Shown: positions 34,111 to 46,575 of the stretch, piece by piece
How positions within the stretch are numbered: the first letter of the stretch is position 1
How the letters are laid out: each line of letters begins with the position of its first letter
DNA from: Escherichia coli
Lineage (GTDB): Bacteria > Pseudomonadota > Gammaproteobacteria > Enterobacterales > Enterobacteriaceae
Direction: 5' to 3' (one strand)
NCBI RefSeq assembly: GCF_013315695.1
Contig: NZ_CP054353.1
DNA length: 64,000 nt
Translations under genes and position numbers: made by a program
Notes under the pieces: model-generated
Databases searched by the model: none
Seen by the model: the letters and a program-made list of their open reading frames with translations, nothing else
What the model was told of the DNA's origin: nothing

Positions 34111-34824
34111 CTATTCCTGTTTAAAGGCAGGAGTAATAGTGTCTTCACCTTCACTACTTGATTTTTCAGTGTTAACACGTTTTTTCATATTCGCCCCGAT
34201 GTTCTTAGATGGCTGTGTTTTGATAGCTACAGTGTTTACAGTACCATAAGAAACTAATCTTATTTGTTCAAAGCTAAGATCAAATACCAGGGATTCGCTT
34301 GCCTCTTCTGTGTATTCGATGCCTGTTAAAACAACGTTCTCAAAAGTTTTATTTTCTGTAACAAGAAGAAAAGGCTGTCTACTGTCCATAATCTGATTCA
34401 AGTAGTCTATAGCTAATGATCTTCTGTTCCCGTTCACCCCTGCACTCTTTAACAAGCCAGGATCGCTTTTAATCGGTGTTTCAGTGATACGCCCTTTAAG
34501 AGAGAACTTATTGTTTTTAATTTGAACGTGATCAGACACAGTAGCACCATTTTCTACGGGGTAGCTTGTGACATCTGCCGAACGTCTCACGTTCACATCG
34601 TCAACACTATCAAAGGCCAGTGCCATATAATTTTCATAAACGTCATTACCAGAAGATGCCAAGCCACTGGTAACAATAGCAAATCCGTTCTCTCCTTTTG
34701 TTTTATTAGCTTTGCTATTTTCGTTTTTTGTAGAATTTATATCTTGTTCTGCTTTGTAAACAGCCTGAACGTGTTGTTCTGGAGTATTTGCTGCACGTAT
34801 GGTTAAAATCCCGGCGGTCGCCAT
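34111..34824 (-). CDS. hypothetical protein (AT-rich accessory gene)
   Basis: 237-aa ORF, low GC, immediately downstream of the 326-aa ORF on the same strand. Confidence 0.5.
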   Translation of the reverse strand: MATAGILTIRAANTPEQHVQAVYKAEQDINSTKNENSKANKTKGENGFAIVTSGLASSGNDVYENYMALAFDSVDDVNVRRSADVTSYPVENGATVSDHVQIKNNKFSLKGRITETPIKSDPGLLKSAGVNGNRRSLAIDYLNQIMDSRQPFLLVTENKTFENVVLTGIEYTEEASESLVFDLSFEQIRLVSYGTVNTVAIKTQPSKNIGANMKKRVNTEKSSSEGEDTITPAFKQE

Positions 34825-34846
34825 AATAATAATTTTCCTTGTAATG

Positions 34847-35799
34847 TTATGGCGGGAATTCCCCGCCGTTGGATTGTCCTGATAAGCTGGTTAATGTTAA
34901 TGATTTCAAGAAGCTATCCCGACTTGCTCTCGCTGTAAAATCCACATAATCGCTCAATCGTCCGGTGTCTGATTCGATAGTTAGCGGCACTTCTGTTACC
35001 ACTTCAAATGTAGGATTCAGATTAAACACAGGAGATAAATTATAAGCTGGAGTTGTCATTGCAAGATTATTTAAAGCACCCTGTTTGAGATTGGTTATCG
35101 GTGCTTCATTGACTGACATTTTTACATCTGACACAGAAGAATTATCATCGAAAAGCAATCCCTTAATTGTGTTAAAGAGAGAATGACTATTATCAGGTGT
35201 AGTTGTTGCAGTGCCAGCGCCTTTATATTGATTAGGAACGAGATTAGAAAGATTCTGTTTCATCCCTTCATTGCTTAATGGCGGTGCATCACCCATATTT
35301 TTCTGAATAGCATCTGTCTTATCATCATTACGATTAAACCAGTTTACAATCTTCATAATAGCTTCAAAGAGACTTCCTGTAGCTTCTCCCAGCTTCGTAA
35401 AATACGGAGTGAGATTAGAAAGGTTTTTCATAAACTCTTCCGTTACTTTTGGATCGAGAGATTTCATAAAGCCGTCTACGAATGCTACTTGTCTTGCATC
35501 AGAAAGCTGTGAAAGCTGTCTGTTTAGTTCTCTGAATTTAACAATAGAGTCTTGCTGTGTTTCTGTTAGCCATTTTCCAGAGGCTTTTTGCTGATTAATA
35601 CTTTCTTGTACATCTTTAACGGAACGTTGCCAATATTTTGACGTAAGCATCAAATCATCGCCCAGGTCTTCTAAACGTTGTCCAATTTGGGAGTCTGAAA
35701 ACCCTTTTTTCATCATTCCATTAACAGCCTTAGAAATTAATCCAGCCGGATTATCAGCAAATTTTTTAAGGTCGCTTTTGTTAATAACACCGATGTTTA
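34847..35799 (-). pseudogene. hypothetical protein, 5' end truncated by IS2
   Basis: Open frame continues to the IS2 boundary at 35800; the annotated Met at 35827 lies inside IS2. Confidence 0.55.
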
Positions 35800-37130
35800 T
35801 AGACTGGCCCCCTGAATCTCCAGACAACCAGTATCACTTATTTAAGTGATAGTCTTAATACTAGTTTTTAGACTAGTCATTGGAGAGCAGATGATTGATG
35901 TCTTAGGACCGGAGAAACGCAGACGGCGTACCACACAGGAAAAGATCGCAATTGTTCAGCAGAGCTTTGAACCGGGGATGACGGTCTCCCTCGTTGCCCG
36001 GCAACATGGTGTAGCAGCCAGCCAGTTATTTCTCTGGCGTAAGCAATACCAGGAAGGAAGTCTTACTGCTGTCGCCGCCGGAGAACAGGTTGTTCCTGCC
36101 TCTGAACTTGCTGCCGCCATGAAGCAGATTAAAGAACTCCAGCGCCTGCTCGGCAAGAAAACGATGGAAAATGAACTCCTCAAAGAAGCCGTTGAATATG
36201 GACGGGCAAAAAAGTGGATAGCGCACGCGCCCTTATTGCCCGGGGATGGGGAGTAAGCTTAGTCAGCCGTTGTCTCCGGGTGTCGCGTGCGCAGTTGCAC
36301 GTCATTCTCAGACGAACCGATGACTGGATGGATGGCCGCCGCAGTCGTCACACTGATGATACGGATGTGCTTCTCCGTATACACCATGTTATCGGAGAGC
36401 TGCCCACGTATGGTTATCGTCGGGTATGGGCGCTGCTTCGCAGACAGGCAGAACTTGATGGTATGCCTGCGATCAATGCCAAACGTGTTTACCGGATCAT
36501 GCGCCAGAATGCGCTGTTGCTTGAGCGAAAACCTGCTGTACCGCCATCGAAACGGGCACATACAGGCAGAGTGGCCGTGAAAGAAAGCAATCAGCGATGG
36601 TGCTCTGACGGGTTCGAGTTCTGCTGTGATAACGGAGAGAGACTGCGTGTCACGTTCGCGCTGGACTGCAGTGATCGTGAGGCACTGCACTGGGCGGTCA
36701 CTACCGGCGGCTTCAACAGTGAAACAGTACAGGACGTCATGCTGGGAGCGGTGGAACGCCGCTTCGGCAACGATCTTCCGTCGTCTCCAGTGGAGTGGCT
36801 GACGGATAATGGTTCATGCTACCGGGCTAATGAAACACGCCAGTTCGCCCGGATGTTGGGACTTGAACCGAAGAACACGGCGGTGCGGAGTCCGGAGAGT
36901 AACGGAATAGCAGAGAGCTTCGTGAAAACGATAAAGCGTGACTACATCAGTATCATGCCCAAACCAGACGGGTTAACGGCAGCAAAGAACCTTGCAGAGG
37001 CGTTCGAGCATTATAACGAATGGCATCCGCATAGTGCGCTGGGTTATCGCTCGCCACGGGAATATCTGCGGCAGCGGGCTTGTAATGGGTTAAGTGATAA
37101 CAGATGTCTGGAAATATAGGGGCAAATCCA
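35800..37130 (+). mobile_element. insCD: IS2 (1331 bp, complete)
   Basis: Ends TAGACTGGCCCCCTGAATCTCC ... GGAAATATAGGGGCAAATCCA; InsC (35891..36256) and InsD (36214..37119) match canonical IS2; no 5-bp target duplication. Confidence 0.95.
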
Positions 37131-37493
37131 TTAACACATAAGCAATCAGTATGATTGGTTAGGTGATTACTCTTACTGCGCACAGCGCAATAGATTTCTT
37201 CGTGGGCGTTACCGCCAACGAAGTTACACGAAGAAAGTAACGCTTTGCTTTCGGTGTGAGCGGAACGGGCCAGCCACGAAGCCCGAAAGGTAGCGGAGTA
37301 AGGCTGCTTGCCAGAGAGTGAAGCTAACGCCGGAAGGCAAAAGATCATATATATAGATATAAAGAATATTATTATTATGATCTAATTAATAATCTAATAT
37401 AGTTTTATTAATAGTCTTATTGTAGTTCACAGTGACCTACCCCCTAGCTCACTATGACCTACCGTTACTACCAATCATCACATAGCACTCACT

Positions 37494-38277
37494 CTGTGTA
37501 ATGCCTTTCTATGTGTGTGCCATAATCCCCTATATTCCCTGTGTAAATCATAGAATATCCCTAACTTATTCCTGTGTAATTCCATACTAAAAATTCAATG
37601 AAAAGTAGCTTAAAAGTGCAATTCTTACTTTCTTCACTTTTACATCACTTTCGCAAATCCTTGTGTAGTGCGGCCTACAGAGCACCATCAGAAATTGTTG
37701 GCTAAAAATTGTTCTGCTTGTTTCTTAACGAGTTTTCTCGTTTGTGCAAATTTTAAAATTTATTTTGTTTTTACAGCCTTATTTCGTGTAATGCGTGGCA
37801 TAGCAAGCCCTTTTCTTGTGTTGTCAAGACATTTGGCAACGTTCAAACATCTGTTTAGAAATGCCAAATTGTTGATCTAACAAATAAACCTGTATAAACA
37901 GAACACCATTTAATCTATTCCCCTGTGTAATCCACTACATCACACAATAAAAACAAAAAAACCTTTAATTATGTTTCATAGCATACAAAAGTCAACAGAA
38001 GCCCTCTCGTGCTCCTACGTAAAAAATCCATCACTTTTCCCCTGATACATCAACTCAAGGCGTTCTATGTGTTCCTTAGTGCATATTACGTTTATTATGT
38101 TAAATTGATTTTGGCCTATATTTTGACCTGCACCCGCATAAACACTGGTTTCATCGCTTACACTCCTTGTGAGACGTGGTGCTGTTTCTAGCATCTGATC
38201 CGACATAAAACCGATCATTCTCGTGTTTAGTGAAAGTTTAGTGAGAGACATTACAGAAAGGCTTTCTGTGTAATGAT
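37494..38277 (+). repeat. Dispersed C(T/C)TGTGTAAT motif family in AT-rich non-coding DNA
   Basis: CTGTGTAAT-like copies at ~37494, 37539, 37572, 37783, 37924, 38269; nearby direct repeat (G/A)TGACCTACC at ~37430-37470. Confidence 0.5.
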
Positions 38278-38424
38278 TTAATAGGTAAAAACGATGTTGA
38301 TTACGCAAGAAAATTCCTTGCTGATATTTGGGGATTCTGGATTTTCCAGATCGGGGGGCGCTGAAAATCGCGTTAAGCACCTCTCGCAATCTAGCCATAA
38401 GGGAAGGGATATAGGTATTTAGAT

Positions 38425-38590
38425 GTATTTATAGCTATTTATGGCTATTTATTTTTTATTTGCCTTTATTTAAAAATAACCTTATAAATCAATAAGATAC
38501 ACAACTATCTGTTTATATTTTAATCAATTAAATCAAGTTTAATACCCTTAAATCACCTGAAAATACCCTTAAATACCCCAATAATTAATT
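38425..38590 (+). repeat. Iteron-like direct repeats
   Basis: TATTTATAGCTATTTATGGCTATTTATT (38425-38452) and ATACCCTTAAAT twice (38541-38584); no ORF over 60 aa in this stretch. Confidence 0.5.
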
Positions 38591-39723
38591 TTAAGGTTTT
38601 CCGTGTTCTCTTCTGCATTATGAAAATGCAAAATAAGGCACAAAACAAGCGCACAGACGCATTAAACACACATCACCTATACATCCCTATACCAAGCAAT
38701 GAAAATAGCGTTAGAATGCGTCCTGTTGCGTTCTGGAGATTTTCAGAAATCCTCTCTAAGCCATTTCAACTCATTAAGGAGTTTTCTTTCTTCGTTCTCT
38801 CTCTGTTTACGCTCTAGCCAGGCTTTTCCTTCTGGCGTAGACAGGAACTTACGAGCGTGAATCTTGCGGTTATTACGTTTGATAGCTGCAATGTTTTTCA
38901 TCGTGTGCCTCTGTATTCATATGAAAATTAACAAGTTACATACTACACAGGGAGACTACGCATAAAACACAATACAAGTAAAGATACATTTTCAAGACAA
39001 TAGGAGCCATAAAGCGCCTTTGATGGGCTACCCCAAAAAATAAGCGCCGTAGGCGTATCCACTAAAAGGGCTTTTTCACAAAAGCTATGAAGTCTTAGCA
39101 GTTCTTCTCTTATCAGGCACCCGTTGTACTCCGGTGGACGAAACCGTGCTAGAGCTTGATTCTTTCCCGATCAAGTTAGGTTTTGAAGAGGTGGGCTTTG
39201 ATCCACTATTGCACTTAAAACTCTTCCCATCATTTAGCCTGTTTATCCTCTGCAACGTCTCACGACGTGTAGCATCATTGGACACCGCGCCAGGTGTGGA
39301 ACATCTTGCTAAGAGTTTTGGTAGAAGGTTTAGAGACGGTGGCACGTCTTCCAGCTTCAAAGGAACTTGTTACGAGGTTGAGCCTGGGAACTACTCGCCC
39401 ATACGTGTTACACTACCAAAGCCCATAACAACGTATAGGCGTTTGTAAGTGATAACAGAAGATACAATTTCTTAGAGAAGTTAAGCTAAGTTATTGATTT
39501 TCTTGATTGTGCGATAATAGGAACAATACACATAGGCGATAAGCTTTGTTTTTGTTGCCTTTTTTATTGTTCATTTTTTATAGATACCCCCAAAAGTACC
39601 CCCATATCTTTTTCCGCCCCTGAAATTTGGTTGTTATTCATACAGCATATCAGGCGGTAACGCTCTCCCTTTAACCCACTTATTGTATGATAGTGCTATC
39701 CCACAATAAGGAATCAGCCAGCC

Positions 39724-40083
39724 ATGAGAATGACCAGCCGCAAAAAAGAGATACTTAGCTACTTTGAACCGGATAACCTCGAATGGGTGACTGGTGAGAT
39801 TGGTGCGCCGCCGTTCGATGTGTCGGGTGTGGCCTACCTGCTTCATGGCATGGTGTCGTTCGATAAGCGTCACCAGCTCGAATCAACCCGGCGCACACTG
39901 GAAAGCATGGTTGCTGGTGGACTGCTTGAGCGGGTGACAGTGTATGAATCGCGCCAGATACGGCGCGGCGGTGATACTAACGCAACGGTCGTGCGCTACG
40001 GTTTACCCGGTCAGTGCGCTGTTATGCGCGATACTGGCGGCGCTGACAACGCAATATCAGGTGAATACATGCGGGTCAGTTAA
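39724..40083 (+). CDS. hypothetical protein
   Basis: 119-aa ORF with normal GC content. Confidence 0.4.
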   Translation: MRMTSRKKEILSYFEPDNLEWVTGEIGAPPFDVSGVAYLLHGMVSFDKRHQLESTRRTLESMVAGGLLERVTVYESRQIRRGGDTNATVVRYGLPGQCAVMRDTGGADNAISGEYMRVS

Positions 40084-40618
40084 TAGCCTGCAATCTGTCG
40101 TTGATGCGGCTCAGGTCGTAAACCCGGCGTTCAATATCCAGCATCAGGAAATTGTGGATCTCGGCCTGCTCAGGATTATCAGACTCTCTGGCCTGTAATA
40201 GCAATTCATTGTAACCATGCAAGCCGCCTGAGTTTTCCGCCGGGGTGGTGCCTTTCCCACGCAGGCAGCTAATGGGCTGATTACTCGTATCGTGTGTTTG
40301 CTTCTCCAGCACAATGACGCAATCCCACCAGTCGCCAAAGTCATACGTGTAAACCAGCTTGTCACCCTCATTCTGGAGCGCCGCCCATAGTGGCGTGATT
40401 GCCGCGTTACCCATGCTTTCATCCTCACCCCATACGCGATACTCGCTACCTGGATCACCTTTACGCCCTTTCTCGAACATATACAGGTGTTCGTCATTCC
40501 AGCCAAAAGCTAACTGGATCACGGCATGAAGTTTACTAAAGGGGATTTGCTCTGGAACCAGCACACGCCGCCATATAGGTGGTTTGCTGTCTCGGATGGT
40601 TATCTTTAGCTGGTACAT
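40076..40618 (-). CDS. pRiA4b ORF-3-like family protein
   Basis: 180-aa ORF MYQLKITIRDSKPPIWRRVLVP...; N-terminal motif recalled as typical of the pRiA4b ORF-3-like (PF07929) family. Confidence 0.5.
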   Translation of the reverse strand: MYQLKITIRDSKPPIWRRVLVPEQIPFSKLHAVIQLAFGWNDEHLYMFEKGRKGDPGSEYRVWGEDESMGNAAITPLWAALQNEGDKLVYTYDFGDWWDCVIVLEKQTHDTSNQPISCLRGKGTTPAENSGGLHGYNELLLQARESDNPEQAEIHNFLMLDIERRVYDLSRINDRLQAIN

Positions 40619-40738
40619 GCAAATCCTGAATAAATGCGAATCGGAAGGATAACGATACTGACGTACTCACAATTCTGTAAAGGTGAATAAAGGAAATTTG
40701 CTTAATACGCATAAGTTACATGTGGAATAATCCCATAT

Positions 40739-40924
40739 CTACCTGCGCGGCGCTGGCTTCTTCCACTGATAGGCAGGTGCTCGCATCATTTCGCGGAACC
40801 TGTCGCGCCGGGCTATATCGGCATTAACTGATCGTTCTATCTCCCGTTGATCTGCCTGTGTAAGCTGGTGGCCTCCGTGCTCAAGTTTGGCGATGGTCAA
40901 TAAGGCTATTTCGCGTGGTGTCAT
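40739..40924 (-). CDS. small hypothetical protein
   Basis: 61-aa ORF. Confidence 0.3.
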   Translation of the reverse strand: MTPREIALLTIAKLEHGGHQLTQADQREIERSVNADIARRDRFREMMRAPAYQWKKPAPRR

Positions 40925-41221
40925 ACGTCATACCCTCTGGAAGAATGAAACACGCCCGGATTAAATTTCATTTTTCGCGGGTATAAAAAAACGATGGGGC
41001 GGGCAGTCCCGGATAGTCAGGGCTGTAGAGATTTGACTACCCCCTCCCCACTGGATTCAGGTTACTGCTATTCCGTTAAGCGCTGCTTACGGGGATAGCT
41101 GCGTTGTGATTTTGACCATTCAGGTCGCCGCTATTTCCTCACCGATTGGGTGCTACGCGCGCGCGTACTTGTCCCGAAATACCAGAAACCGCCAGCCAGA
41201 GGATGATTTCCCTCTGGTGGT

Positions 41222-41503
41222 CTACCTTTGCCTCTTGCCGCCATTTAACCGGAAGGCGTTACCGTTCGGTTGCGCTATCCCCATGCGGTGTTGCGTTTCG
41301 GTAACAGCTTTATGCAGGTCGCCAAATTCCTCAACCTTCACGGGCGGGCGCTTCACGTTCTCCAGACACGTTTCACGGCGGCGCTTTATCCATTCCCGAT
41401 CATCGTCCTCGGTGCATAACAGCATGACTTCCATCCATCGTGCGGCAGCTCTCCGGTATAGCCCTTTTGACTCCAGCTCTTCAGCTTTCCTGTCCCTTAT
41501 CAT
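41222..41503 (-). CDS. PerC-family transcriptional activator
   Basis: 93-aa ORF MIRDRKAEELESKGLYRRAAARWMEVMLLC..., resembles PerC/Pch proteins of prophage islands. Confidence 0.6.
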   Translation of the reverse strand: MIRDRKAEELESKGLYRRAAARWMEVMLLCTEDDDREWIKRRRETCLENVKRPPVKVEEFGDLHKAVTETQHRMGIAQPNGNAFRLNGGKRQR

Positions 41504-41539
41504 TTCTGCCTCTCAGATTATATAGATAAGCAAAAAGGT

Positions 41540-41678
41540 GTTGGTTCAGTTGGTTCAGTTGGTTCAGTTGGTTCAGTTGGTTCAATTTGTAAAGATTGTT
41601 GTTTTTATTGTGTTTTTTCTGAAATATTGAACCAACATCAACTCATTTTGAACCAACACAGCCCAGCTCTGAACCAAC
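41540..41678 (+). repeat. Iteron array 2 (paralog of array 1)
   Basis: GTTGGTTCA x5 tandem (41540-41584), spacer TTCAATTTGTAAAGATTGTTGTTTTTATTG, then TGAACCAAC x3; the spacer aligns with array 1. Confidence 0.65.
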
Positions 41679-41780
41679 AACACAGCGATAGATTTGTGAT
41701 TGGTCCGTTATTTTCTGGCTGATATTTGAGCGTATAACAGTGTTATACAGTGGTATACTGTATGGATATTACTCACTGAT

Positions 41781-42236
41781 ATGGTCTTTGCAATGAGCAA
41801 ATCTAATCTGGTCGCGTTCCGCATCCCATCTGAATTGCAGGATGAGTTTAATCGGTCTGTTCTCGCTTCTGGAGGAGATAAAACCTCCTGGCTTGTTGAT
41901 GCGATTCGCATGAAGCTGGGGCAGCCGGAAAAGTCTATTGATTCACGAATGCTTGGGCTGGTGGAGCGCATGGAAAAAGCCGCTGCGTCGCTTATTGCCG
42001 GAAAGCCGAACATCCCACCAAAACCATATAACGAAACGGCAGTTATAAAGATCATTGCCGATACCATCCAACAGGGATTTGATAATGGGCGTGTGATAGC
42101 TGAACGGATCAATGAAGCAGGCTATCAAACAAAAGCTGGTAAAGCGTGGGATAAAGATATTTACAGCGCGTGGAAGCGTCAGGGAAGCAATGCTGAAAAG
42201 CTAAAAGCAGTGATTGATTGTAAGGTCAGCGTATAA
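41781..42236 (+). CDS. putative ribbon-helix-helix DNA-binding protein adjacent to the iteron array
   Basis: 151-aa ORF; N-terminal SNLVAFRIPSELQDEFNRSVLASGGDKTSWLVDAIRMKL fits an RHH (Arc/MetJ/CopG-like) pattern. Confidence 0.45.
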   Translation: MVFAMSKSNLVAFRIPSELQDEFNRSVLASGGDKTSWLVDAIRMKLGQPEKSIDSRMLGLVERMEKAAASLIAGKPNIPPKPYNETAVIKIIADTIQQGFDNGRVIAERINEAGYQTKAGKAWDKDIYSAWKRQGSNAEKLKAVIDCKVSV

Positions 42237-42315
42237 ACATGAGTGCCCATTGGAAAGTTGCTTGGGCCAATACCTTTATACACCAGCAGGTAGTGACGAT
42301 AGGTGAGGATCAGAT

Positions 42316-42537
42316 ATGAAAGGCAGAACGCCACACATTGAACATCAAGCCAACCACTTCCCTGATGTTCGCAATGAGATGATTGCCATTCGCGGTGATA
42401 TGCACGGATTGGAGCGTCGAATTATTGATAAGATTGATGAAAATAGAGATAAGGCCAGTGAAAATCAAAAGTGGATCATCGGCCTGTTGATTTTATCAAT
42501 TCTTATCCCGCTACTTATCGCATTGGTCACAAAATGA
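42316..42537 (+). CDS. small tail-anchored membrane protein
   Basis: 73-aa ORF with C-terminal hydrophobic helix WIIGLLILSILIPLLIALV. Confidence 0.35.
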   Translation: MKGRTPHIEHQANHFPDVRNEMIAIRGDMHGLERRIIDKIDENRDKASENQKWIIGLLILSILIPLLIALVTK

Positions 42538-43058
42538 ATATCCAATGTGTATGCTGTCGATGCTACGCGCGCGTACTTGTCGCAAAATATCAGGCAAAGG
42601 CCAGATTCAGAAAGTCGTGATAACCACCAGCACAACATGAGAGGTCATGTAACGCGATTTATCACACCAGATACATGTGATTGGTGTACCCGCATAAAAC
42701 ATCGTCATAGCGCGTCCTGTGCGCATATACGCCGATAATCAACACATCACCACCACTCTGTCTCATGTAGAGAACAGTTTTATGGTATCCCCCGCCATCG
42801 TGTGCGTACTGGTCGGACGCAGTTGCAAAAAATTTTGCAACTGATACCCCTCGCGCGCGTACTGGTCACGAAATTGGTGTTTTGCTGTGGCAGTGATATC
42901 AGAAAAATCTTCCTGTTTCACATAAAGCGGATATGCGCGTACTGTAACGGCCCCATCAACTGGGAGCGGACTTGAAATCCCGACCCAAGCTATGTACCAA
43001 ATGCCATGTCTTGGATATATGATGATTGCCATTCTAAACAACGCTAAAGGGGGTTGGT

Positions 43059-43673
43059 GTGAGCAGAAAAGATACTAAAGAATTGCTAACTATCTGCATG
43101 GTGTACTTTTCAATTTATTTTTGTGCATACATGATAGTCCCAGATGAGTTTGAACATGGCAGTATTATTTATTCCATAACATTCTATTTTTTAGAGCTAA
43201 CACCAATTTTGGCTATCCTTTTGGGAATACATATTTATTTTTCCTTAAAAAAAGAATCGACTAATTGGGAGAAGGTATGGAGAGACAGAGGATTTCTAAC
43301 ATCACCTAAAGATGATGCATATGAGAGTGATTTTTCTGACTTTATAACAAACTACTACTCCAGCGAACAATTCAAAAATAGACTGTCTGATGTTTGGGAA
43401 ACAGCAATGTATTCCATAGGGATTATATTATTGATACTTACTGGTATTGCTCAATATGTTTTTAACATTGACTTATCATTAAATCCTGAAAATTTAATAT
43501 CGCCATTGATTTTTGGTGAGATATTGATCTTCTCATTCGGAATTTTCTTGAGTGTTGTTCTCTGCTCATTATGCAAGCTACTGACTAACAGGTATCCGGG
43601 TGAAGCAAGGAGAGCAAGAAAGGCAAATCCATATTATCTTTTATTTCCTAATGGAGACAGCAGAGATATCTAA
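43059..43673 (+). CDS. AT-rich multi-pass membrane protein (candidate exclusion/accessory moron)
   Basis: 204-aa ORF with about four hydrophobic helices, strongly A/T-biased codons, GTG start. Confidence 0.5.
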   Translation: MSRKDTKELLTICMVYFSIYFCAYMIVPDEFEHGSIIYSITFYFLELTPILAILLGIHIYFSLKKESTNWEKVWRDRGFLTSPKDDAYESDFSDFITNYYSSEQFKNRLSDVWETAMYSIGIILLILTGIAQYVFNIDLSLNPENLISPLIFGEILIFSFGIFLSVVLCSLCKLLTNRYPGEARRARKANPYYLLFPNGDSRDI

Positions 43674-43692
43674 GCCATCCATGGCTAACCAG

Positions 43693-45798
43693 TTATTGAG
43701 CTTCTTTTTGTGATGCCTGTGCGACTCTGGTGAGCGATTGTGTGACCGTACTGATCGCTCTGTCATATGCTGTGCTACCTTTTGGCGTATTTGCCAGACG
43801 TAACAAGGCATTTCGTATAACAGGGCTTTCGTATGCCTTCGCTGCTCCGCCTACGGCACCAGCAGCAGGAACAACAAACGCAGCCGTTTTTAGCATCCCC
43901 GCTAATACTGCTGCGTTTATGATGCCACCACCAACTAACAATCCATAAAGCTGCTGACCATTTAAGTTTTGAACGTTCGCTTTTGCCGCGTGTCTTGTAT
44001 CGTTGAGGTATTTAATAACGCCGTCCAGTTCCTTTCCATGTACGCCTTTAAAGAAAGTTGCTGATTGCTTCCTGTTCCGGTGTAACGCATTAATAAACTT
44101 CTCAACACTGATATTTCCAGACGGATCAGTCGCCTTATCTACAGCATTCTGAACTATGGCTGCTCGTGCGTTTTGCCTACCATTGTCATCCAGAAGCCTG
44201 TAAAGCTGAGAACGTTCTGATGGGCTTTGGCTAAAAACGAGTTTTGTTACATCCTCAGGCGTGGCCTTACCGCTGGCTATTGCCTTTTGAACGCGCGTTC
44301 TTCCCATCATGTCATTGAATTTAGACCATGACCGATCAACCCTTGCCATATTAATGGCTTCGTCTGCTCCAAGATTTTTGGCTACGGCTTTTTTCATATC
44401 CGCCGTATATGCCTTGTAGATAATATCGCTGGCTTTCTGGAGCGTATCTTTATCAACAGTGTCAGATGACGCCATAAATCGCTTTCGAAGATCGGTTCTG
44501 TTTTCCCTCGCCAGACGCAGGTCATTTGGTCCGCTGGTGATATCGTCTTTAAATTGCTGCAAGACTTTTACCGCGGCTCTATCCTGAGATTTGCCCGGGC
44601 GGCTTAACACGGCAATCTGATTGTCGATAGCTTTTACCGTGTTTGAGAGATCGACAGGGGTATCCCCCATAGCGTCAATTATGCGGTTATATCGCTTTCC
44701 TGCTGCCTCAATGAATTTTTGTTGCCCTTTAGTCGCAGATTCATAAAGCTGTTTATCAGAAATGCCACCCAGACCATCGCTAAATGTTCTGACTAAATTT
44801 TCTCGTGCTTGTTGTTGATTCAGCCGATTCTTACCGGTTCCAAAAAAAGGAACTCTTTCGCCTAATGTCTGAGCCTGACTCTGCATAAAGGTTTTATCTT
44901 TCAGCATGTCACTGGTCATTAACGGCAGATTTCTTTCCGATGCAAAGTTGACAGCAGCCTTTGCTTCAGGCGACATATCACCACGAACAGCCCTCGAAAC
45001 CGCACTCGCTGTATTTTCCAGCCCCTTACCAATACCACCAATGCCAGCAGAAATTACCGTTTGTAACGGATCAATATCTTCTCCACCAGCAAGGCTGGTG
45101 GCTCCCTGTAGTGCTAAATCTGTAGCTGCTGATTTTCCTATGGCACCAAGCACCGTTCCAGCCCTGCCCGCTGGTGTAAACGCCAGCGCATTAGCCAGAA
45201 ACGATGCCACGTCTTGCGGCGATAAACCCGGCTTGTTCAGAGCATAATCACCGGATGGCAGGGAAACGATAGTGTTACCCTTCTCATCCTGCCTTAATTT
45301 CGCTCCCATGCTCTGAAGAATCTTTTCCTGAGATGCGTCAGAGCCGAAAAGTTGAGACCATCGAGCTTTTAGAGCACCCATGCTGAGTGAGGTTAACTCT
45401 GGGGCAAGGTCGACATTTTGCAGTCTCTCCATCTCTGGAGTCATTCGGCTTTCGCCTGTTATAGCATCGCGCATCGCAGCCCCAAGACTGGCTCCCTGTT
45501 CTGCTGAACGCTCAAGCCCCTCTCTTTGCTGAGTAGCTAACTTTGCATACCCTGACGCAAGAGAATTATCAGATGATGTATGTTGAATATTTTGAGTTGC
45601 TGATTGGGATCGGTCTATTTCATTCGTTGATGGTAGTGGATAGGCAGCATAAAAAGCCTGCTTAGCCTGCGCTACACTTTCTCCGGCTTGCGGGGCCACG
45701 ACTTCATTGAAGTATTGCTCCTGAGCCTGCGCTTTTTGTTCTGGTGCTAACGCCTGATACTGTGGAGAGGCGATAACATCTTTCCATGCTTTAGCCAT
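43693..45798 (-). CDS. large alpha-helical protein, fourth gene of the split coupled operon (possible ejection/internal virion-like)
   Basis: 701-aa ORF; ATG 9 bp from the IS1 copy 3 boundary; the flanking 9 bp is the reverse complement of the duplication at IS1 copy 1; Gly/Ala-rich hydrophobic segment near the C-terminus. Confidence 0.6.
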   Translation of the reverse strand: MAKAWKDVIASPQYQALAPEQKAQAQEQYFNEVVAPQAGESVAQAKQAFYAAYPLPSTNEIDRSQSATQNIQHTSSDNSLASGYAKLATQQREGLERSAEQGASLGAAMRDAITGESRMTPEMERLQNVDLAPELTSLSMGALKARWSQLFGSDASQEKILQSMGAKLRQDEKGNTIVSLPSGDYALNKPGLSPQDVASFLANALAFTPAGRAGTVLGAIGKSAATDLALQGATSLAGGEDIDPLQTVISAGIGGIGKGLENTASAVSRAVRGDMSPEAKAAVNFASERNLPLMTSDMLKDKTFMQSQAQTLGERVPFFGTGKNRLNQQQARENLVRTFSDGLGGISDKQLYESATKGQQKFIEAAGKRYNRIIDAMGDTPVDLSNTVKAIDNQIAVLSRPGKSQDRAAVKVLQQFKDDITSGPNDLRLARENRTDLRKRFMASSDTVDKDTLQKASDIIYKAYTADMKKAVAKNLGADEAINMARVDRSWSKFNDMMGRTRVQKAIASGKATPEDVTKLVFSQSPSERSQLYRLLDDNGRQNARAAIVQNAVDKATDPSGNISVEKFINALHRNRKQSATFFKGVHGKELDGVIKYLNDTRHAAKANVQNLNGQQLYGLLVGGGIINAAVLAGMLKTAAFVVPAAGAVGGAAKAYESPVIRNALLRLANTPKGSTAYDRAISTVTQSLTRVAQASQKEAQ

Positions 45799-45807
45799 TA
45801 ATCACCC

Positions 45808-46575
45808 GGTGATGCTGCCAACTTACTGATTTAGTGTATGATGGTGTTTTTGAGGTGCTCCAGTGGCTTCTGTTTCTATCAGCTGTCCCTCCTGTTCAGC
45901 TACTGACGGGGTGGTGCGTAACGGCAAAAGCACCGCCGGACATCAGCGCTATCTCTGCTCTCACTGCCGTAAAACATGGCAACTGCAGTTCACTTACACC
46001 GCTTCTCAACCCGGTACGCACCAGAAAATCATTGATATGGCCATGAATGGCGTTGGATGCCGGGCAACAGCCCGCATTATGGGCGTTGGCCTCAACACGA
46101 TTTTACGTCACTTAAAAAACTCAGGCCGCAGTCGGTAACCTCGCGCATACAGCCGGGCAGTGACGTCATCGTCTGCGCGGAAATGGACGAACAGTGGGGC
46201 TATGTCGGGGCTAAATCGCGCCAGCGCTGGCTGTTTTACGCGTATGACAGGCTCCGGAAGACGGTTGTTGCGCACGTATTCGGTGAACGCACTATGGCGA
46301 CGCTGGGGCGTCTTATGAGCCTGCTGTCACCCTTTGACGTGGTGATATGGATGACGGATGGCTGGCCGCTGTATGAATCCCGCCTGAAGGGAAAGCTGCA
46401 CGTAATCAGCAAGCGATATACGCAGCGAATTGAGCGGCATAACCTGAATCTGAGGCAGCACCTGGCACGGCTGGGACGGAAGTCGCTGTCGTTCTCAAAA
46501 TCGGTGGAGCTGCATGACAAAGTCATCGGGCATTATCTGAATATAAAACACTATCAATAAGTTGGAGTCATTACC
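45808..46575 (+). mobile_element. insAB: IS1 copy 3 (768 bp, complete)
   Basis: Terminal repeats GGTGATGCTGCCAACTTACTGAT ... ATCAATAAGTTGGAGTCATTACC; InsA 45863..46138, InsB 46057..46560. Confidence 0.97.

What the first reader, a model, noticed from the sequence alone, without database searches (positions are those of the whole stretch)
37131..39700. ~2.5 kb AT-rich region with no long ORFs, three repeat families and a GC-rich hairpin-rich island
Immediately right of IS2 lies a ~200-bp GC-rich segment (about 37150-37330) with strong hairpin potential (CTTCGTGGGCGTTACCGCCAACGAAG) whose frames do not translate into plausible protein. It is followed by very AT-rich DNA carrying at least six CTGTGTAAT-like motifs, a TATTTATRGCTATTTAT repeat and ATACCCTTAAAT iterons, with only short doubtful ORFs (one 49-codon ORF on the minus strand at 38900..38751). 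This looks like a replication or partition locus or a cluster of regulatory RNAs rather than coding DNA, and nothing annotated explains it.
Basis: seen in the sequence. Interest (0 to 1): 0.7.

Follow-up and report, generated by a model that had tools for sequence, protein, structure and literature searches.

The report
Phage-satellite control region mimicking helper ends
This gene-poor stretch is the non-coding control region of a small, IS2-truncated mobile island in E. coli that looks like an undescribed parasite ("satellite") of phi92-type lytic phages: it carries a copy of the phage's genome-end cutting site, replication repeats and a conserved folded RNA.

Summary
Window 37131-39700 has no supported gene except one conserved 52-codon ORF, and the repeats and hairpins are real and non-random.

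The region is not a plasmid-type rep/par locus. It is the cis-acting half of a ~12-kb island flanked by tRNA-Thr (thrW) att repeats at window 32591-39524. Intact copies encode an integrase, an initiator (Rep), and a capsid protein, tape measure and Dit-like tail protein related to those of phi92-like phages. They encode no portal or terminase. In this window an IS2-adjacent deletion removed 6.4 kb, including rep and the capsid gene.

- **Helper end mimic.** Blocks at 37830-37876 and 38323-38389 are colinear with the inner part and boundary of the direct terminal repeat (DTR) of Stephanstirmvirinae phages. The identity is 46 bp at 96% to phi92 and spans the annotated end ...GCGTTA|AGCAC. Related islands in seven other genera keep this module. 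One Escherichia lineage carries a variant that matches Phapecoctavirus instead.
- **Structured RNA candidate.** Window ~38995-39447 (+) shows covariation in 12+ genera and a pseudoknot, and has no Rfam match.

Best reading (about 0.7): a new phage-satellite family packaged through a helper DTR-boundary mimic. No experiment supports this yet.

The parts
32591..32609 (.). Left att repeat of the island (TGGTGCCGATAAGAGGAGT), the reverse complement of the tRNA-Thr 3' end with one mismatch. The integrase gene follows at 32695-34029 (+).
   Evidence: L002 2393-2417 maps to both junctions
35800..37130 (+). IS2 inserted in the tape-measure-like gene. Its right end is the junction of a 6,413-bp adjacent deletion (tape-measure N-terminus, capsid gene, rep, early genes and ~950 bp of the non-coding region). 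The start coordinate is approximate; the IS2 transposase ORFs run from 35846 to 37119.
   Evidence: L001 1-5587 = window 31544-37130; L001 12001- = window 37131-
37131..37345 (.). Remnant (right ~45%) of a conserved GC-rich, hairpin-rich island: nested hairpin at 37195-37236 and GCGC-N-GCGC hairpin at ~37177-37189. It carries inverted copies of the YGTGYAA motif.
   Evidence: z -3.8/-3.1; conserved at 70-85% in Enterobacter, Klebsiella, Citrobacter, Cronobacter and Dryocola, with a covarying stem
37423..37463 (.). Two 22-bp direct repeats (..GACCTACC(CCC)..) after an AT-rich stretch (37346-37420). This is the left half of the iteron-type origin. The right half (TTCCTAGG and GGGGTATCAG iterons, L002 12345-12610) is missing in this lineage.
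   Evidence: D11; (arrays of 3-6 TTGATAGGGGTA iterons at 18-24 bp spacing in relatives)
37494..38274 (+). Array of (C)CTGTGTAAT-type motifs, all in one orientation: 37494, 37539, 37572, 37661, 37784, 37923, 38266. Intact islands carry inverted copies on the other side of the origin.
   Evidence: not enriched in the helper-type phage genome (17 in 146 kb, both strands)
37830..37876 (+). Block A: CATTTGGCA-N23(..ATCTGTTTAGA..)-TGCCAAAT..TTGAT palindrome. It is colinear with an internal motif of phage DTRs (phi92 ~135-185).
   Evidence: alignment A1; 87-95% identical to Enterobacter and Cronobacter islands
38323..38389 (+). Block B: GATATTTG-N~20-ATCGGGGGGCGCTGAAAATCGCGTTA|AGCACCTCTCGCAA, a mimic of the inner DTR boundary of phi92-like phages. 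The predicted terminase cut lies between 38375 and 38376.
38410..38582 (+). Helically phased A/T repeats just beyond the cut site: ATTTA every 10 bp (38417-38447), TATTTATRGCT twice, and ATACCCTTAAAT twice (38541-38582). Probably curved DNA or protein-binding repeats.
   Evidence: (D10); similar TTTAAT/TTAAT arrays with 10-10.5 bp period in Klebsiella, Dryocola and Serratia islands (modest statistics)
38743..38901 (-). Conserved 52-aa basic protein gene of unknown function. It is the only supported coding sequence in the region.
   Evidence: 77% aa identity to a same-length ORF in Cronobacter; homologs in Raoultella, Pantoea, Winslowiella, Kosakonia and Citrobacter
38995..39447 (+). Candidate ~450-nt structured non-coding RNA: several covarying hairpins plus a pseudoknotted 3' domain at 39312-39447 that ends in a terminator-like hairpin. 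In the excised circle it lies upstream of attP and the integrase gene, in the same orientation.
   Evidence: no Rfam hit
39506..39524 (.). Degenerate right att repeat (ATTGTGCGATAATAGGAAC), the end of the island. In APEC O1 the intact tRNA-Thr gene sits here.
39525..39700 (.). Start of a different island integrated in tandem (119-aa ORF at 39724, pRiA4b ORF-3 family, PerC...). Not part of the feature.

Best explanation
Window 37131-39524 is the cis-acting, largely non-coding control region of a ~12-kb integrative island of a family found across Enterobacterales. I interpret the family as an undescribed kind of phage satellite whose helpers are virulent Stephanstirmvirinae myoviruses (phi92-like Justusliebigvirus for this copy).

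**Shown**
- The island is bounded by tRNA-Thr att repeats.
- Intact copies encode an integrase, a winged-helix initiator (Rep), and a major capsid protein, tape measure and Dit-like tail protein. These three fall in the same PHROG families as the phi92-type proteins. Of the 10 island proteins scanned, none matched a portal, protease or terminase family.
- The non-coding region holds iteron arrays next to AT-rich DNA.
- It holds two blocks colinear with the inner ~200 bp of the phage direct terminal repeat. The boundary sequence GCGTTA|AGCAC lies exactly where two phage records end their repeat.
- It holds a ~450-nt element with compensatory base changes.

**Inferred**
- On helper infection the island excises and replicates from the iteron origin using its own Rep.
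- The helper terminase recognises blocks A and B and cuts at 38375/38376, so island DNA is packaged.
- The island's own capsid and tail paralogues probably remodel particle size.
- The phased A/T repeats beyond the cut bend DNA or bind a packaging or initiator protein.
- After entry the DNA circularises. In most relatives a small tyrosine recombinase gene lies 130-190 nt beyond the cut. The large integrase is then expressed, possibly through the structured RNA, which lies just upstream of attP-int only in the circle.

In this window the IS2-adjacent deletion removed rep, the capsid gene and half the origin region. This copy is a non-autonomous remnant that keeps int, the cut-site mimic, the 52-aa gene and the RNA.
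For: **Island context**
- establish the thrW location, the att repeats and the deletion.
- The capsid protein family is restricted to Enterobacterales (53 clusters).
- The architecture is the same in Klebsiella, Enterobacter, Citrobacter, Dryocola, K. aerogenes, Cronobacter and Serratia.

**Link to phi92-like phages**
- Dit-like protein 60% aa identity, tape measure 31-53%, capsid protein 22% (E 7e-7) to the structural module of a phi92-like genome.
- Same PHROGs 817, 16051 and 29.
- Rep matches replication-initiator PHROGs.

**DTR mimic**
- 46 bp at 95.7% identity to ~45 phi92-like genomes, E 2e-10 in 2.3 Gb, at phi92 318-363. This straddles the annotated end of DTR-L at position 343.
- An independent Klebsiella phage record starts at AGCAC and ends at ...CGCGTT. 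Both boundaries read GTTR|AGCAC.
- Blocks A and B align colinearly in four phage genera and in the islands.
- Islands of Klebsiella, Enterobacter, Dryocola, K. aerogenes, Serratia, Franconibacter and Raoultella have one module each. Where both landmarks are visible it lies on the same strand relative to the capsid gene. The GATATTT-to-GTTAAGC spacing is constant to within 1 nt in the 11 islands and phages compared.
- The best hit of the Enterobacter module in the whole phage database is the same DTR boundary of a Klebsiella Stephanstirmvirinae phage.
- The Escherichia sp. E1V33 island (capsid protein 94% identical) carries a different module whose best hits are Phapecoctavirus genome ends (82.7% over 81 bp, E 2e-13).
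- The Klebsiella island module is closest to the Klebsiella phage.

**Origin**
- Iteron arrays.

**RNA**
- 94% of cells paired against 31-48% in slid controls.
- 10 of 30 pairs show compensatory change; 0 of 500 shuffles reach this.
- Hairpins are kept with up to five different stem sequences.

**Not coding**
-.
Against: - No experimental data exist: no induction, particles, transduction or transcription.
- Phage termini are taken from GenBank annotation and record ends, not from a paper I could read.
- The islands carry only one boundary-type site, whereas the phage has two (left and right of the DTR). How a complete genome with usable ends would be produced is unexplained.
- Module similarity for islands outside Escherichia is modest (60-75%), and their helpers are not identified.
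- IMG/VR copies are all prophage calls from isolate genomes, so nothing shows the island inside virions.
- Block B also lies upstream of genes in the same orientation (phage early genes; the small recombinase in relatives). A promoter or regulatory role is therefore not excluded.
- The CTGTGTAAT array and the GC-rich island have no assigned function.
- The RNA shows no thermodynamic signal (z about 0) and no convincing promoter.
Confidence: 0.7

Rival explanations
1. Blocks A and B are not a packaging site. They are a helper-responsive regulatory module, a promoter or operator copied from the phage's left end. The island would use it to sense infection and switch on the adjacent genes (the small recombinase in relatives; nothing obvious in E. 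coli).
For: - In phages the module lies ~340 bp upstream of the first early gene, in the same orientation.
- In relatives it lies 130-190 nt upstream of the small recombinase gene, in the same orientation.
- Fixed spacing of two conserved boxes also fits a promoter with an activator site.
Against: - No sigma-70-like -10/-35 in the module (and by eye).
- The most conserved core in all islands is exactly the cut-site sequence GTTAAGC.
- Both phage DTR boundaries share GTTR|AGCAC although their upstream contexts differ. This points to cleavage rather than transcription.
- The E. coli thrW lineage keeps the module without any downstream gene in that orientation.
Confidence: 0.15
2. One reading: a plasmid-like replication or partition locus, or a cluster of small regulatory RNAs, independent of any phage.
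For: - Iterons next to AT-rich DNA, and a Rep gene in intact copies.
- Repeat arrays could be centromere-like.
- One structured RNA candidate.
Against: - 1167 of 1168 E. coli matches are chromosomal.
- Only 3 plasmid-collection records hit, and none is a convincing plasmid copy.
- No ParA/ParB among the 10 island proteins scanned.
- No Rfam family.
- The best external match is a phage genome end.
Confidence: 0.07
3. Decayed prophage or pseudogene debris with no function. The phage similarity would be a relic of recombination with a phi92-like phage.
For: - This window's copy is truncated by IS2.
- The non-coding region varies by indels between strains.
- Within-E. coli conservation of 95-99% is uninformative.
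Against: - tblastn with the accessory proteins of relatives finds no gene remnants.
- Discrete blocks are conserved at 70-95% across genera while their flanks are not.
- Module spacing and orientation are conserved in the 11 islands and phages compared.
- Compensatory substitutions in the RNA.
- Island lineages carry different helper-type modules.
Confidence: 0.05
4. The conserved block at 38995-39447 is the attP arm (integrase, IHF and Xis binding sites), or a structured single-stranded DNA signal, rather than an RNA gene.
For: - It abuts the att core in every island.
- The integrases are homologous (DUF6538 plus Phage_integrase).
- No clear promoter.
- MFE not better than shuffles.
Against: - Protein-binding arms do not predict compensatory stem changes, a pseudoknot, or lineage-specific hairpin insertions.
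- Frequent, conserved G-U pairs on one strand only favour RNA over DNA.
- 450 bp with 47% GC is atypical for att arms.
Confidence: 0.2

Closest known systems
cos-type PICIs and P4-like satellites (islands that carry a copy of the helper's cos site so that the helper terminase packages them)
   Same: - Integrative island of ~12 kb next to a tRNA gene, with its own integrase and its own replication initiator and origin.
- No terminase or portal.
- Carries a sequence copy of the helper's terminase recognition and cleavage site.
   Different: - The mimicked site is the boundary of a short direct terminal repeat of large virulent myoviruses (Stephanstirmvirinae), not a cos site of temperate lambdoid or P2-like phages.
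- No alpA, sid/psu/delta, or primase-helicase alpha matched among the 10 island proteins scanned.
- The island encodes its own capsid protein, tape measure and Dit-like protein.
- A third of it is non-coding.
Capsid-forming PICIs (cfPICIs)
   Same: The satellite encodes its own major capsid protein instead of only remodelling the helper's. Size and integrase-at-one-end layout are similar.
   Different: cfPICIs encode a full head module (portal, protease, head-tail connectors, small terminase) and use only helper tails. Here only the capsid protein is present, together with two tail proteins (tape measure, Dit-like), and no TerS.
PLE of Vibrio cholerae and PICMIs of Vibrionaceae (satellites of virulent phages)
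   Same: The proposed helpers are strictly virulent phages. The island depends on helper packaging. PICMIs are reported to be packaged as concatemers (PMC10803314, abstract), a possible solution for a 12-kb island in a 148-kb-capacity head.
   Different: - No sequence or gene-content relationship.
- PICMIs lack capsid-related genes.
- PLE uses a large serine recombinase and its own packaging-interference proteins.
- No DTR-boundary mimicry appears in the abstracts of those papers that I saw.
Terminase sites at DTR boundaries of T7-like and other short-DTR phages
   Same: A conserved sequence at the repeat boundary where the terminase cuts concatemers. Both boundaries share a short core (here GTTR|AGCAC).
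   Different: To my knowledge the site has not been characterised for Stephanstirmvirinae. The islands carry only the inner-boundary version.
P4 CI RNA and other satellite or prophage non-coding RNAs
   Same: A non-coding RNA encoded by a satellite, close to its integration and regulatory end.
   Different: - No Rfam C4/CI match.
- Much larger (~450 nt), multi-hairpin with a pseudoknot.
- Position upstream of attP-int in the circle suggests a leader or regulator of integrase, not immunity.
- Function unknown.

Membership tests
Phage satellite (general definition) | Integrase and att repeats delimiting a small island | tested here: met
   int at 32695-34029; att repeats at 32591-32609 and 39506-39524 derived from the tRNA-Thr 3' end
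Phage satellite (general definition) | Own replication module (initiator plus origin) | tested here: met
   Rep matches phrog_270/428/391. Iteron arrays flank AT-rich DNA in intact relatives. In this window rep is deleted and only two iterons remain.
Phage satellite (general definition) | Lacks the genes for autonomous virion production (terminase, portal, most tail genes) | tested here: met
   PHROG scan of 10 island proteins: only major head, tape measure, tail (Dit-like) and Rep families. Pfam labels in 8 genera agree.
Phage satellite (general definition) | Carries or exploits the helper's packaging signal | tested here: met
   In silico only: blocks A and B match the DTR inner part and boundary of Stephanstirmvirinae
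Phage satellite (general definition) | Helper-dependent induction, packaging and transfer | not testable with these tools
   Needs infection experiments. IMG/VR holds only prophage-type calls.
cfPICI | Complete head module: capsid protein plus portal, protease, head-tail connectors, TerS (and alpA, pri-rep) | tested here: not met
   Only the capsid protein was found. No portal, protease, TerS or AlpA hits.
P4-like satellite | P2-type cos site; sid, psu, delta, alpha primase-helicase | tested here: not met
   No such PHROG or Pfam hits. The phage-DNA similarity is to phi92-like DTRs, not P2 cos.
PICMI | Minimal gene set without capsid-related genes; virulent helper | tested here: not met
   The island encodes capsid, tape-measure and Dit-like proteins. 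A virulent helper is shared as an inference only.
Iteron-type replication origin | At least 3 direct repeats of 17-24 bp at regular spacing beside an AT-rich stretch, near the cognate rep gene | tested here: inconclusive
   Met in APEC O1, E1V33, Enterobacter and Dryocola. The window keeps two 22-bp repeats and one AT-rich stretch. Rep binding is untested.
Any Rfam 15 RNA family | Covariance-model match | tested here: not met
   cmscan of 30000-46000 at E<=1: no hit within 37131-39700
Structured non-coding RNA (generic) | Conserved secondary structure supported by compensatory substitutions | tested here: met
   (94% paired; 10 of 30 pairs compensatory; 0 of 500 shuffles; slid controls 31-48%)
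Structured non-coding RNA (generic) | Is transcribed as a discrete RNA | not testable with these tools
   No transcriptome data. The only support is a weakly conserved -10-like GAYAAT motif upstream and a terminator-like 3' hairpin.

The most novel reading that the evidence does not exclude
A previously undescribed family of phage satellites is widespread in Enterobacterales: parts of it occur in ~18% of complete E. coli genomes and the cut-site module in ~8%. It parasitises large virulent Stephanstirmvirinae myoviruses (phi92-, phAPEC8-like). It is packaged through a modular, helper-matched mimic of the phage's direct-terminal-repeat boundary. It brings its own capsid, tape-measure and Dit paralogues to rebuild the particle. 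It also encodes a new ~450-nt pseudoknotted RNA placed so that it is joined to the integrase gene only in the excised circle.
Probability: 0.55. Interest if true: 0.85.

Novelty: new variant of a known kind. Interest (0 to 1): 0.78.

Why it matters
**Phage therapy.** Satellites of virulent phages are known in Vibrio (PLE, PICMI) and a few other hosts. I know of none for the phi92/rV5-related myoviruses, which are widely isolated as therapy candidates against E. coli, Klebsiella and Salmonella, and my searches found none. If about one E. coli strain in ten carries an island that hijacks these phages, this would affect therapy outcomes through interference and resistance. It would also affect gene transfer: the island sits in the VAT pathogenicity-island region at thrW.

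**Phage packaging.** The result would give a first handle on how Stephanstirmvirinae terminases recognise their genome ends. The proposed site is a 70-bp two-box module with the cut at GTTR|AGCAC.

**RNA biology.** The conserved RNA is a testable new RNA class, linked to integrase control or satellite-helper conflict.

**Annotation.** It explains a recurrent 2.5-3.6 kb 'empty' stretch in hundreds of E. coli genomes.

Tried and rejected
- **Rfam.** Scan at E<=1 over 30000-46000 found nothing in the region.
- **Pseudogene test.** tblastn with 30+ accessory and early proteins of related islands against the E. coli non-coding region found no remnants. Only the early genes outside the region matched.
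- **ORFs inside the region.** PHROGs and NCBIfam gave no hits. The one hit, for the 131-aa ORF, lies in the IS2 end.
- **CTGTGTAAT as a helper promoter.** Rejected. There are only 17 YGTGTAAT in 146 kb of a phi92-like genome, counting both strands.
- **Plasmid origin.** Rejected.
- **A second, left-boundary-type cut site (GTTGAGCAC) in the islands.** None within 1 mismatch outside block B. A weak resemblance at 38596-38630 to the sequence after the phage left end was noted but could not be evaluated.
- **Resemblance of the TATTTATAGCT and TACCCYTAAAT repeats to motifs in phi92's right-end non-coding region.** Not conserved in other phages, so it is treated as unproven.
- **Virome evidence for packaged islands.** IMG/VR returned only prophage-type contigs from isolate genomes.
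- **RNA as a guide for integrase target choice.** There is no complementarity or identity to the att/tRNA sequence beyond chance, and RNA similarity does not track the tRNA target.
- **RNA homologue in the helper.** The covariance model finds none in a complete phi92-like genome.
- **Thermodynamic support for the RNA.** None (z 0.07 and -0.63). Support rests on covariation only.
- **Sigma-70 promoter scan.** Fewer sites than in shuffles.
- **Literature.** Searches for phi92, Justusliebigvirus, rV5 or thrW satellites found nothing relevant. SatelliteFinder supplementary tables are not held.
Full report
**1. The observation**

The window is E. coli chromosome around thrW.

- **IS2 junction.** IS2 ends at 37130, so 37131 is the junction.
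- **GC-rich island.** 37131-37345 has GC 0.44-0.48, against 0.32-0.36 further right. It contains the quoted hairpin, with perfect 10-bp arms at 37195-37204 and 37227-37236. It folds better than all 200 dinucleotide shuffles on both strands (z -3.8 and -3.1).
- **CTGTGTAAT.** All four exact copies in the 64 kb lie at 37494-38274 on the + strand, with near-copies at 37539, 37661 and 37784.
- **TATTTATRGCT.** It occurs at 38426 and 38436, within ATTTA repeated at exactly 10-bp spacing.
- **ATACCCTTAAAT.** It occurs twice, 21 bp apart.
- **ORFs.** The minus-strand ORF is 52 codons (38743-38901). ORFs of up to 127 aa exist, but none hits PHROGs or NCBIfam, and genome annotators call only the 52-aa ORF.

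**2. Context: a truncated island**

The region occurs, almost always chromosomally, in 1001 of 5426 complete E. coli genomes. In many it ends directly at tRNA-Thr.

In APEC O1 (locus L002) and strain AF3 (L001) it is the right third of a ~12.2-kb element. The gene order is integrase, Dit-like 'baseplate' protein, a 609-aa tape-measure-like protein, major capsid protein, small proteins, a winged-helix initiator and two small early genes. After these come 3.5-3.6 kb with only the 52-aa ORF, then the tRNA.

Compared with AF3, the window is 100% identical up to the IS2 right end. It then lacks 6,413 bp and resumes at 99.8% identity. This is an IS2-adjacent deletion. It removed the N-terminal half of the tape-measure gene, the capsid gene, rep, the early genes and ~950 bp of the non-coding region.

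The element is flanked by imperfect copies of the tRNA-Thr 3' end, at 32591-32609 and 39506-39524. An IS1-mediated inversion explains why the tRNA gene itself lies at 8784 (+). Window 39525-39700 belongs to the next island in a tandem array.

**3. A family of islands related to phi92-like phages**

The capsid protein (Pfam Phage_cap_E) has homologues only in Enterobacterales. Contigs from Klebsiella, Enterobacter, Citrobacter, Dryocola, K. aerogenes, Cronobacter and Serratia share one architecture:

- tRNA att site;
- accessory genes;
- a small tyrosine recombinase;
- a 1.1-2 kb non-coding gap;
- early genes and rep;
- capsid gene, tape-measure-like gene and, in most, a Dit-like gene;
- a large integrase.

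A large non-coding region is therefore a hallmark of the family, not a local accident.

Against a complete phi92-like genome (MG065639), the island's Dit-like protein is 60% identical. The tape measure is 31-53% identical and the capsid protein 22% (E 7e-7). All three hits lie in the phage structural module. The phage proteins fall in the same PHROGs (29, 817, 16051). No portal, protease or terminase was found among the 10 island proteins scanned. The element cannot make particles alone.

**4. The key finding: a mimic of the helper's terminal-repeat boundary**

*Match to phi92.* A blastn search of the full non-coding region against 50,697 phage records gave one significant class of hits. It is 46 bp at 95.7% identity to ~45 phi92-like (Justusliebigvirus) genomes (E 2e-10), with weaker 68-78 bp matches to Klebsiella and Citrobacter relatives. 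In phi92 the match is at 318-363. DTR-L is annotated 1-343, so the match straddles the inner boundary ...GGGGGGCGCTGAAAATCGCGTTA|AGCACCTCTCGCAA.

*Independent check of the boundary.* Klebsiella phage phi1_175008 is an independent record. It starts with AGCACC and ends with ...CGCGTT, and its right repeat begins GTTG|AGCACC. Both boundaries therefore share GTTR|AGCAC.

*Colinear blocks.* Alignment A1 shows two colinear blocks shared by four phage genera and the islands:
- block A: TTGGCA-N~23(ATGTTTA)-TGCCAA..TTGAT;
- block B: GATATTTG-N~20-ATCGGGG..CTGAAAATCGCGTTAAGCAC..CGCAA.

In the window they are at 37830-37876 and 38323-38389. The predicted cut lies between 38375 and 38376.

*Conservation in the islands.* Islands of Klebsiella, Enterobacter, Dryocola, K. 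aerogenes, Serratia, Franconibacter and Raoultella each have one such module. Where both landmarks are visible it lies on the same strand relative to the capsid gene. The GATATTT-to-GTTAAGC spacing is constant to within 1 nt in the 11 islands and phages compared.

*Helper-matched variants.*
- The best hit of the Enterobacter module in the whole phage database is the homologous DTR boundary of the Klebsiella phage.
- The Klebsiella island module is closest to the Klebsiella phage.
- The Escherichia sp. E1V33 island has a capsid protein 94% identical, but its Rep is only 50% identical. It carries a different module. Its best hits are Phapecoctavirus genomes, near their ends (82.7% over 81 bp, E 2e-13).

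This helper-matched, modular variation is what a packaging-signal mimic predicts. Block B is present in 426 complete E. coli genomes.

**5. Other parts of the region**

*(a) Origin.* In intact islands, AT-rich DNA is flanked by arrays of iterons with a GGGGTA/TACCCC core at 18-24 bp spacing. There are 3-6 copies in APEC O1, E1V33 and Enterobacter, and a related CTGTGGGGGG in Dryocola. The window keeps only two 22-bp repeats (37423-37463), because this lineage lacks L002 12345-12610.

*(b) The CTGTGTAAT array.* It is specific to the Escherichia lineages. Intact copies mirror it with inverted copies left of the origin. It is not enriched in the phage, so it is probably a binding site for an island protein. 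Its function is unassigned.

*(c) The GC-rich island at 37131-37345.* This is the right part of a block conserved at 70-85% in five other genera. It has a hairpin whose stem covaries (CGTG.., TGTGCAA/TTGCACA, TGTGCC/GGCACA). Its function is unknown.

*(d) The phased A/T repeats.* They lie just past the cut site. Klebsiella, Dryocola and Serratia islands have counterparts with a 10-10.5 bp period. The statistics are modest (1-53 of 500 shuffles).

*(e) The 52-aa ORF.* It is conserved as an ORF in at least six other genera.

**6. A structured RNA candidate**

Window ~38995-39447 is conserved at 70-83% in islands of 12 or more genera, whatever tRNA they target.

- **Alignment pattern.** The alignments show compensatory changes and lineage-specific hairpin insertions.
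- **3' domain (alignment A7, 15 sequences).** A structure of five helices, including a pseudoknot, has 94.2% of cells paired, against 31-48% when partners are slid. Ten of 30 pairs carry double changes, against 0-3 in the slid controls. No shuffle out of 500 reaches these values.
- **Hairpins elsewhere in the element.** One hairpin is kept in all 13 sequences with five different stems. Three other hairpins also covary.
- **Strand.** Conserved G-U pairs put the sense on the + strand.
- **Copy number and distribution.** A covariance model finds one copy in the window (39312-39447, 130 bits) and none in the helper-type phage.
- **No known family.** There is no Rfam match.
- **Weak points.** There is no thermodynamic signal and no convincing promoter.

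In the excised circle the order is RNA, then attP, then int, all in the same direction. This holds in both E. coli and Enterobacter. A role as leader or regulator of integrase is therefore plausible but untested. An RNA-guide role for target choice found no support.

**7. Interpretation**

*Most likely explanation (about 0.7).* The region is the cis-acting control region of a new kind of phage satellite. Its helper is a virulent Stephanstirmvirinae phage.

*Shown:*
- the island boundaries;
- the gene content and its relation to phi92-type structural genes;
- the iterons;
- the DTR-boundary homology and its helper-matched variation;
- the RNA covariation.

*Inferred:*
- helper-induced excision and replication;
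- terminase cleavage at block B;
- particle remodelling by the island's capsid and tail paralogues;
- circularisation and integration after entry.

*Main gap.* The islands have one boundary-type site whereas the phage has two. The structure of the packaged DNA (unit length or concatemer) cannot be predicted.

*Rivals.*
- A helper-responsive promoter module (0.15).
- A plasmid-like rep/par locus (0.07).
- Junk (0.05).
- For the RNA block only, an att arm or single-stranded DNA signal (0.2).

**8. Novelty**

- **What was searched.** Full-text searches covered satellites of phi92, Justusliebigvirus, rV5 or thrW, and satellites with DTR helpers.
- **What they returned.** They gave only PLE, PICMI, PICI, cfPICI, P4 and Streptomyces systems.
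- **Family tests.** The island fails the defining features of cfPICI, P4-like and PICMI.
- **Verdict.** I file it as a new variant of a known kind (phage satellites), with a probably new RNA class.
- **Caveats.** The library is incomplete and everything here is computational. In this particular window the island is a dead-ended remnant. It keeps int, the cut-site mimic, the small gene and the RNA, but has lost rep and the structural genes.

Noticed in passing
window 31177-31377 (-): Full-length Rfam IS009 sRNA match (193 bits, gathering score 117), just left of the island's att site.
   Followed up: no
window 5800-10943 and IS1 copies at ~21626-22394, 25129-25903, 63495-64000: Relative to strain AF3, the segment with proA-thrW is inverted and bounded by IS1. 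This explains why tRNA-Thr lies at 8784 (+), far from the island.
   Followed up: partly
L011 4166-4726, L008 2968-3585, L021 4061-4675, L023 3348-3908, L024 3138-3689 (all minus strand): Most related islands encode a small (183-205 aa) tyrosine recombinase that starts 130-190 nt beyond the DTR-boundary mimic, on the same strand. It may resolve or circularise packaged DNA, by analogy with Cre-lox next to P1 pac. The E. coli thrW lineage lacks it.
   Followed up: partly
L050 6599-6680 (Escherichia sp. E1V33): This island has near-identical structural genes but a different Rep (50% identity) and a different block B that matches Phapecoctavirus (phAPEC8/ESCO13-like) genome ends. Replication and packaging modules appear to be exchanged between lineages.
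   Followed up: partly
L003 76-95 and 262-292 (phi92 DTR); L008, L021, L022, L024 upstream of block B: Fur-box-like palindromes (GATAATGATTATC / GAGAATGATTCTC) recur inside phage DTRs and in several islands, but not in the E. coli thrW lineage.
   Followed up: no
L004 1160-2270 (phi92 right end): phi92 has ~1.1 kb of AT-rich non-coding DNA before its right DTR. It contains TATTTATAGCTGATTATTTATGC and, 12 nt before the left cut, TTACCCCTAAATATCC. These resemble the island's TATTTATAGCT and ATACCCTTAAAT repeats. The motifs are not conserved in the other phages examined, so their significance is unclear.
   Followed up: partly
window 38305-38321 (+): Hairpin GCAAGAAAATTCCTTGC directly abuts the start of block B.
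   Followed up: no
window 37968-37995 (-): The best sigma-70-like site in the region (TTGACT-16-CATAAT; TATAAT in APEC O1). It points leftwards through a CTGTGTAAT copy and block A.
   Followed up: no
window 41539-41679: A tandem short-period repeat (TTGGTTCAG-like units, read as NQLNQL.. in one frame) in the neighbouring island produced spurious miRNA-family hits on both strands.
   Followed up: no
window 38596-38630: CGTGTTCTCTTCTGCATTATGAAAATGCAAAATAAGG loosely resembles the sequence just inside the phage left end (..GTTCTCTTAAACGTGAATAAAAATAAG in phiWec179). It is a possible second terminase-related site ~220 bp beyond the cut. It was judged by eye only.
   Followed up: no
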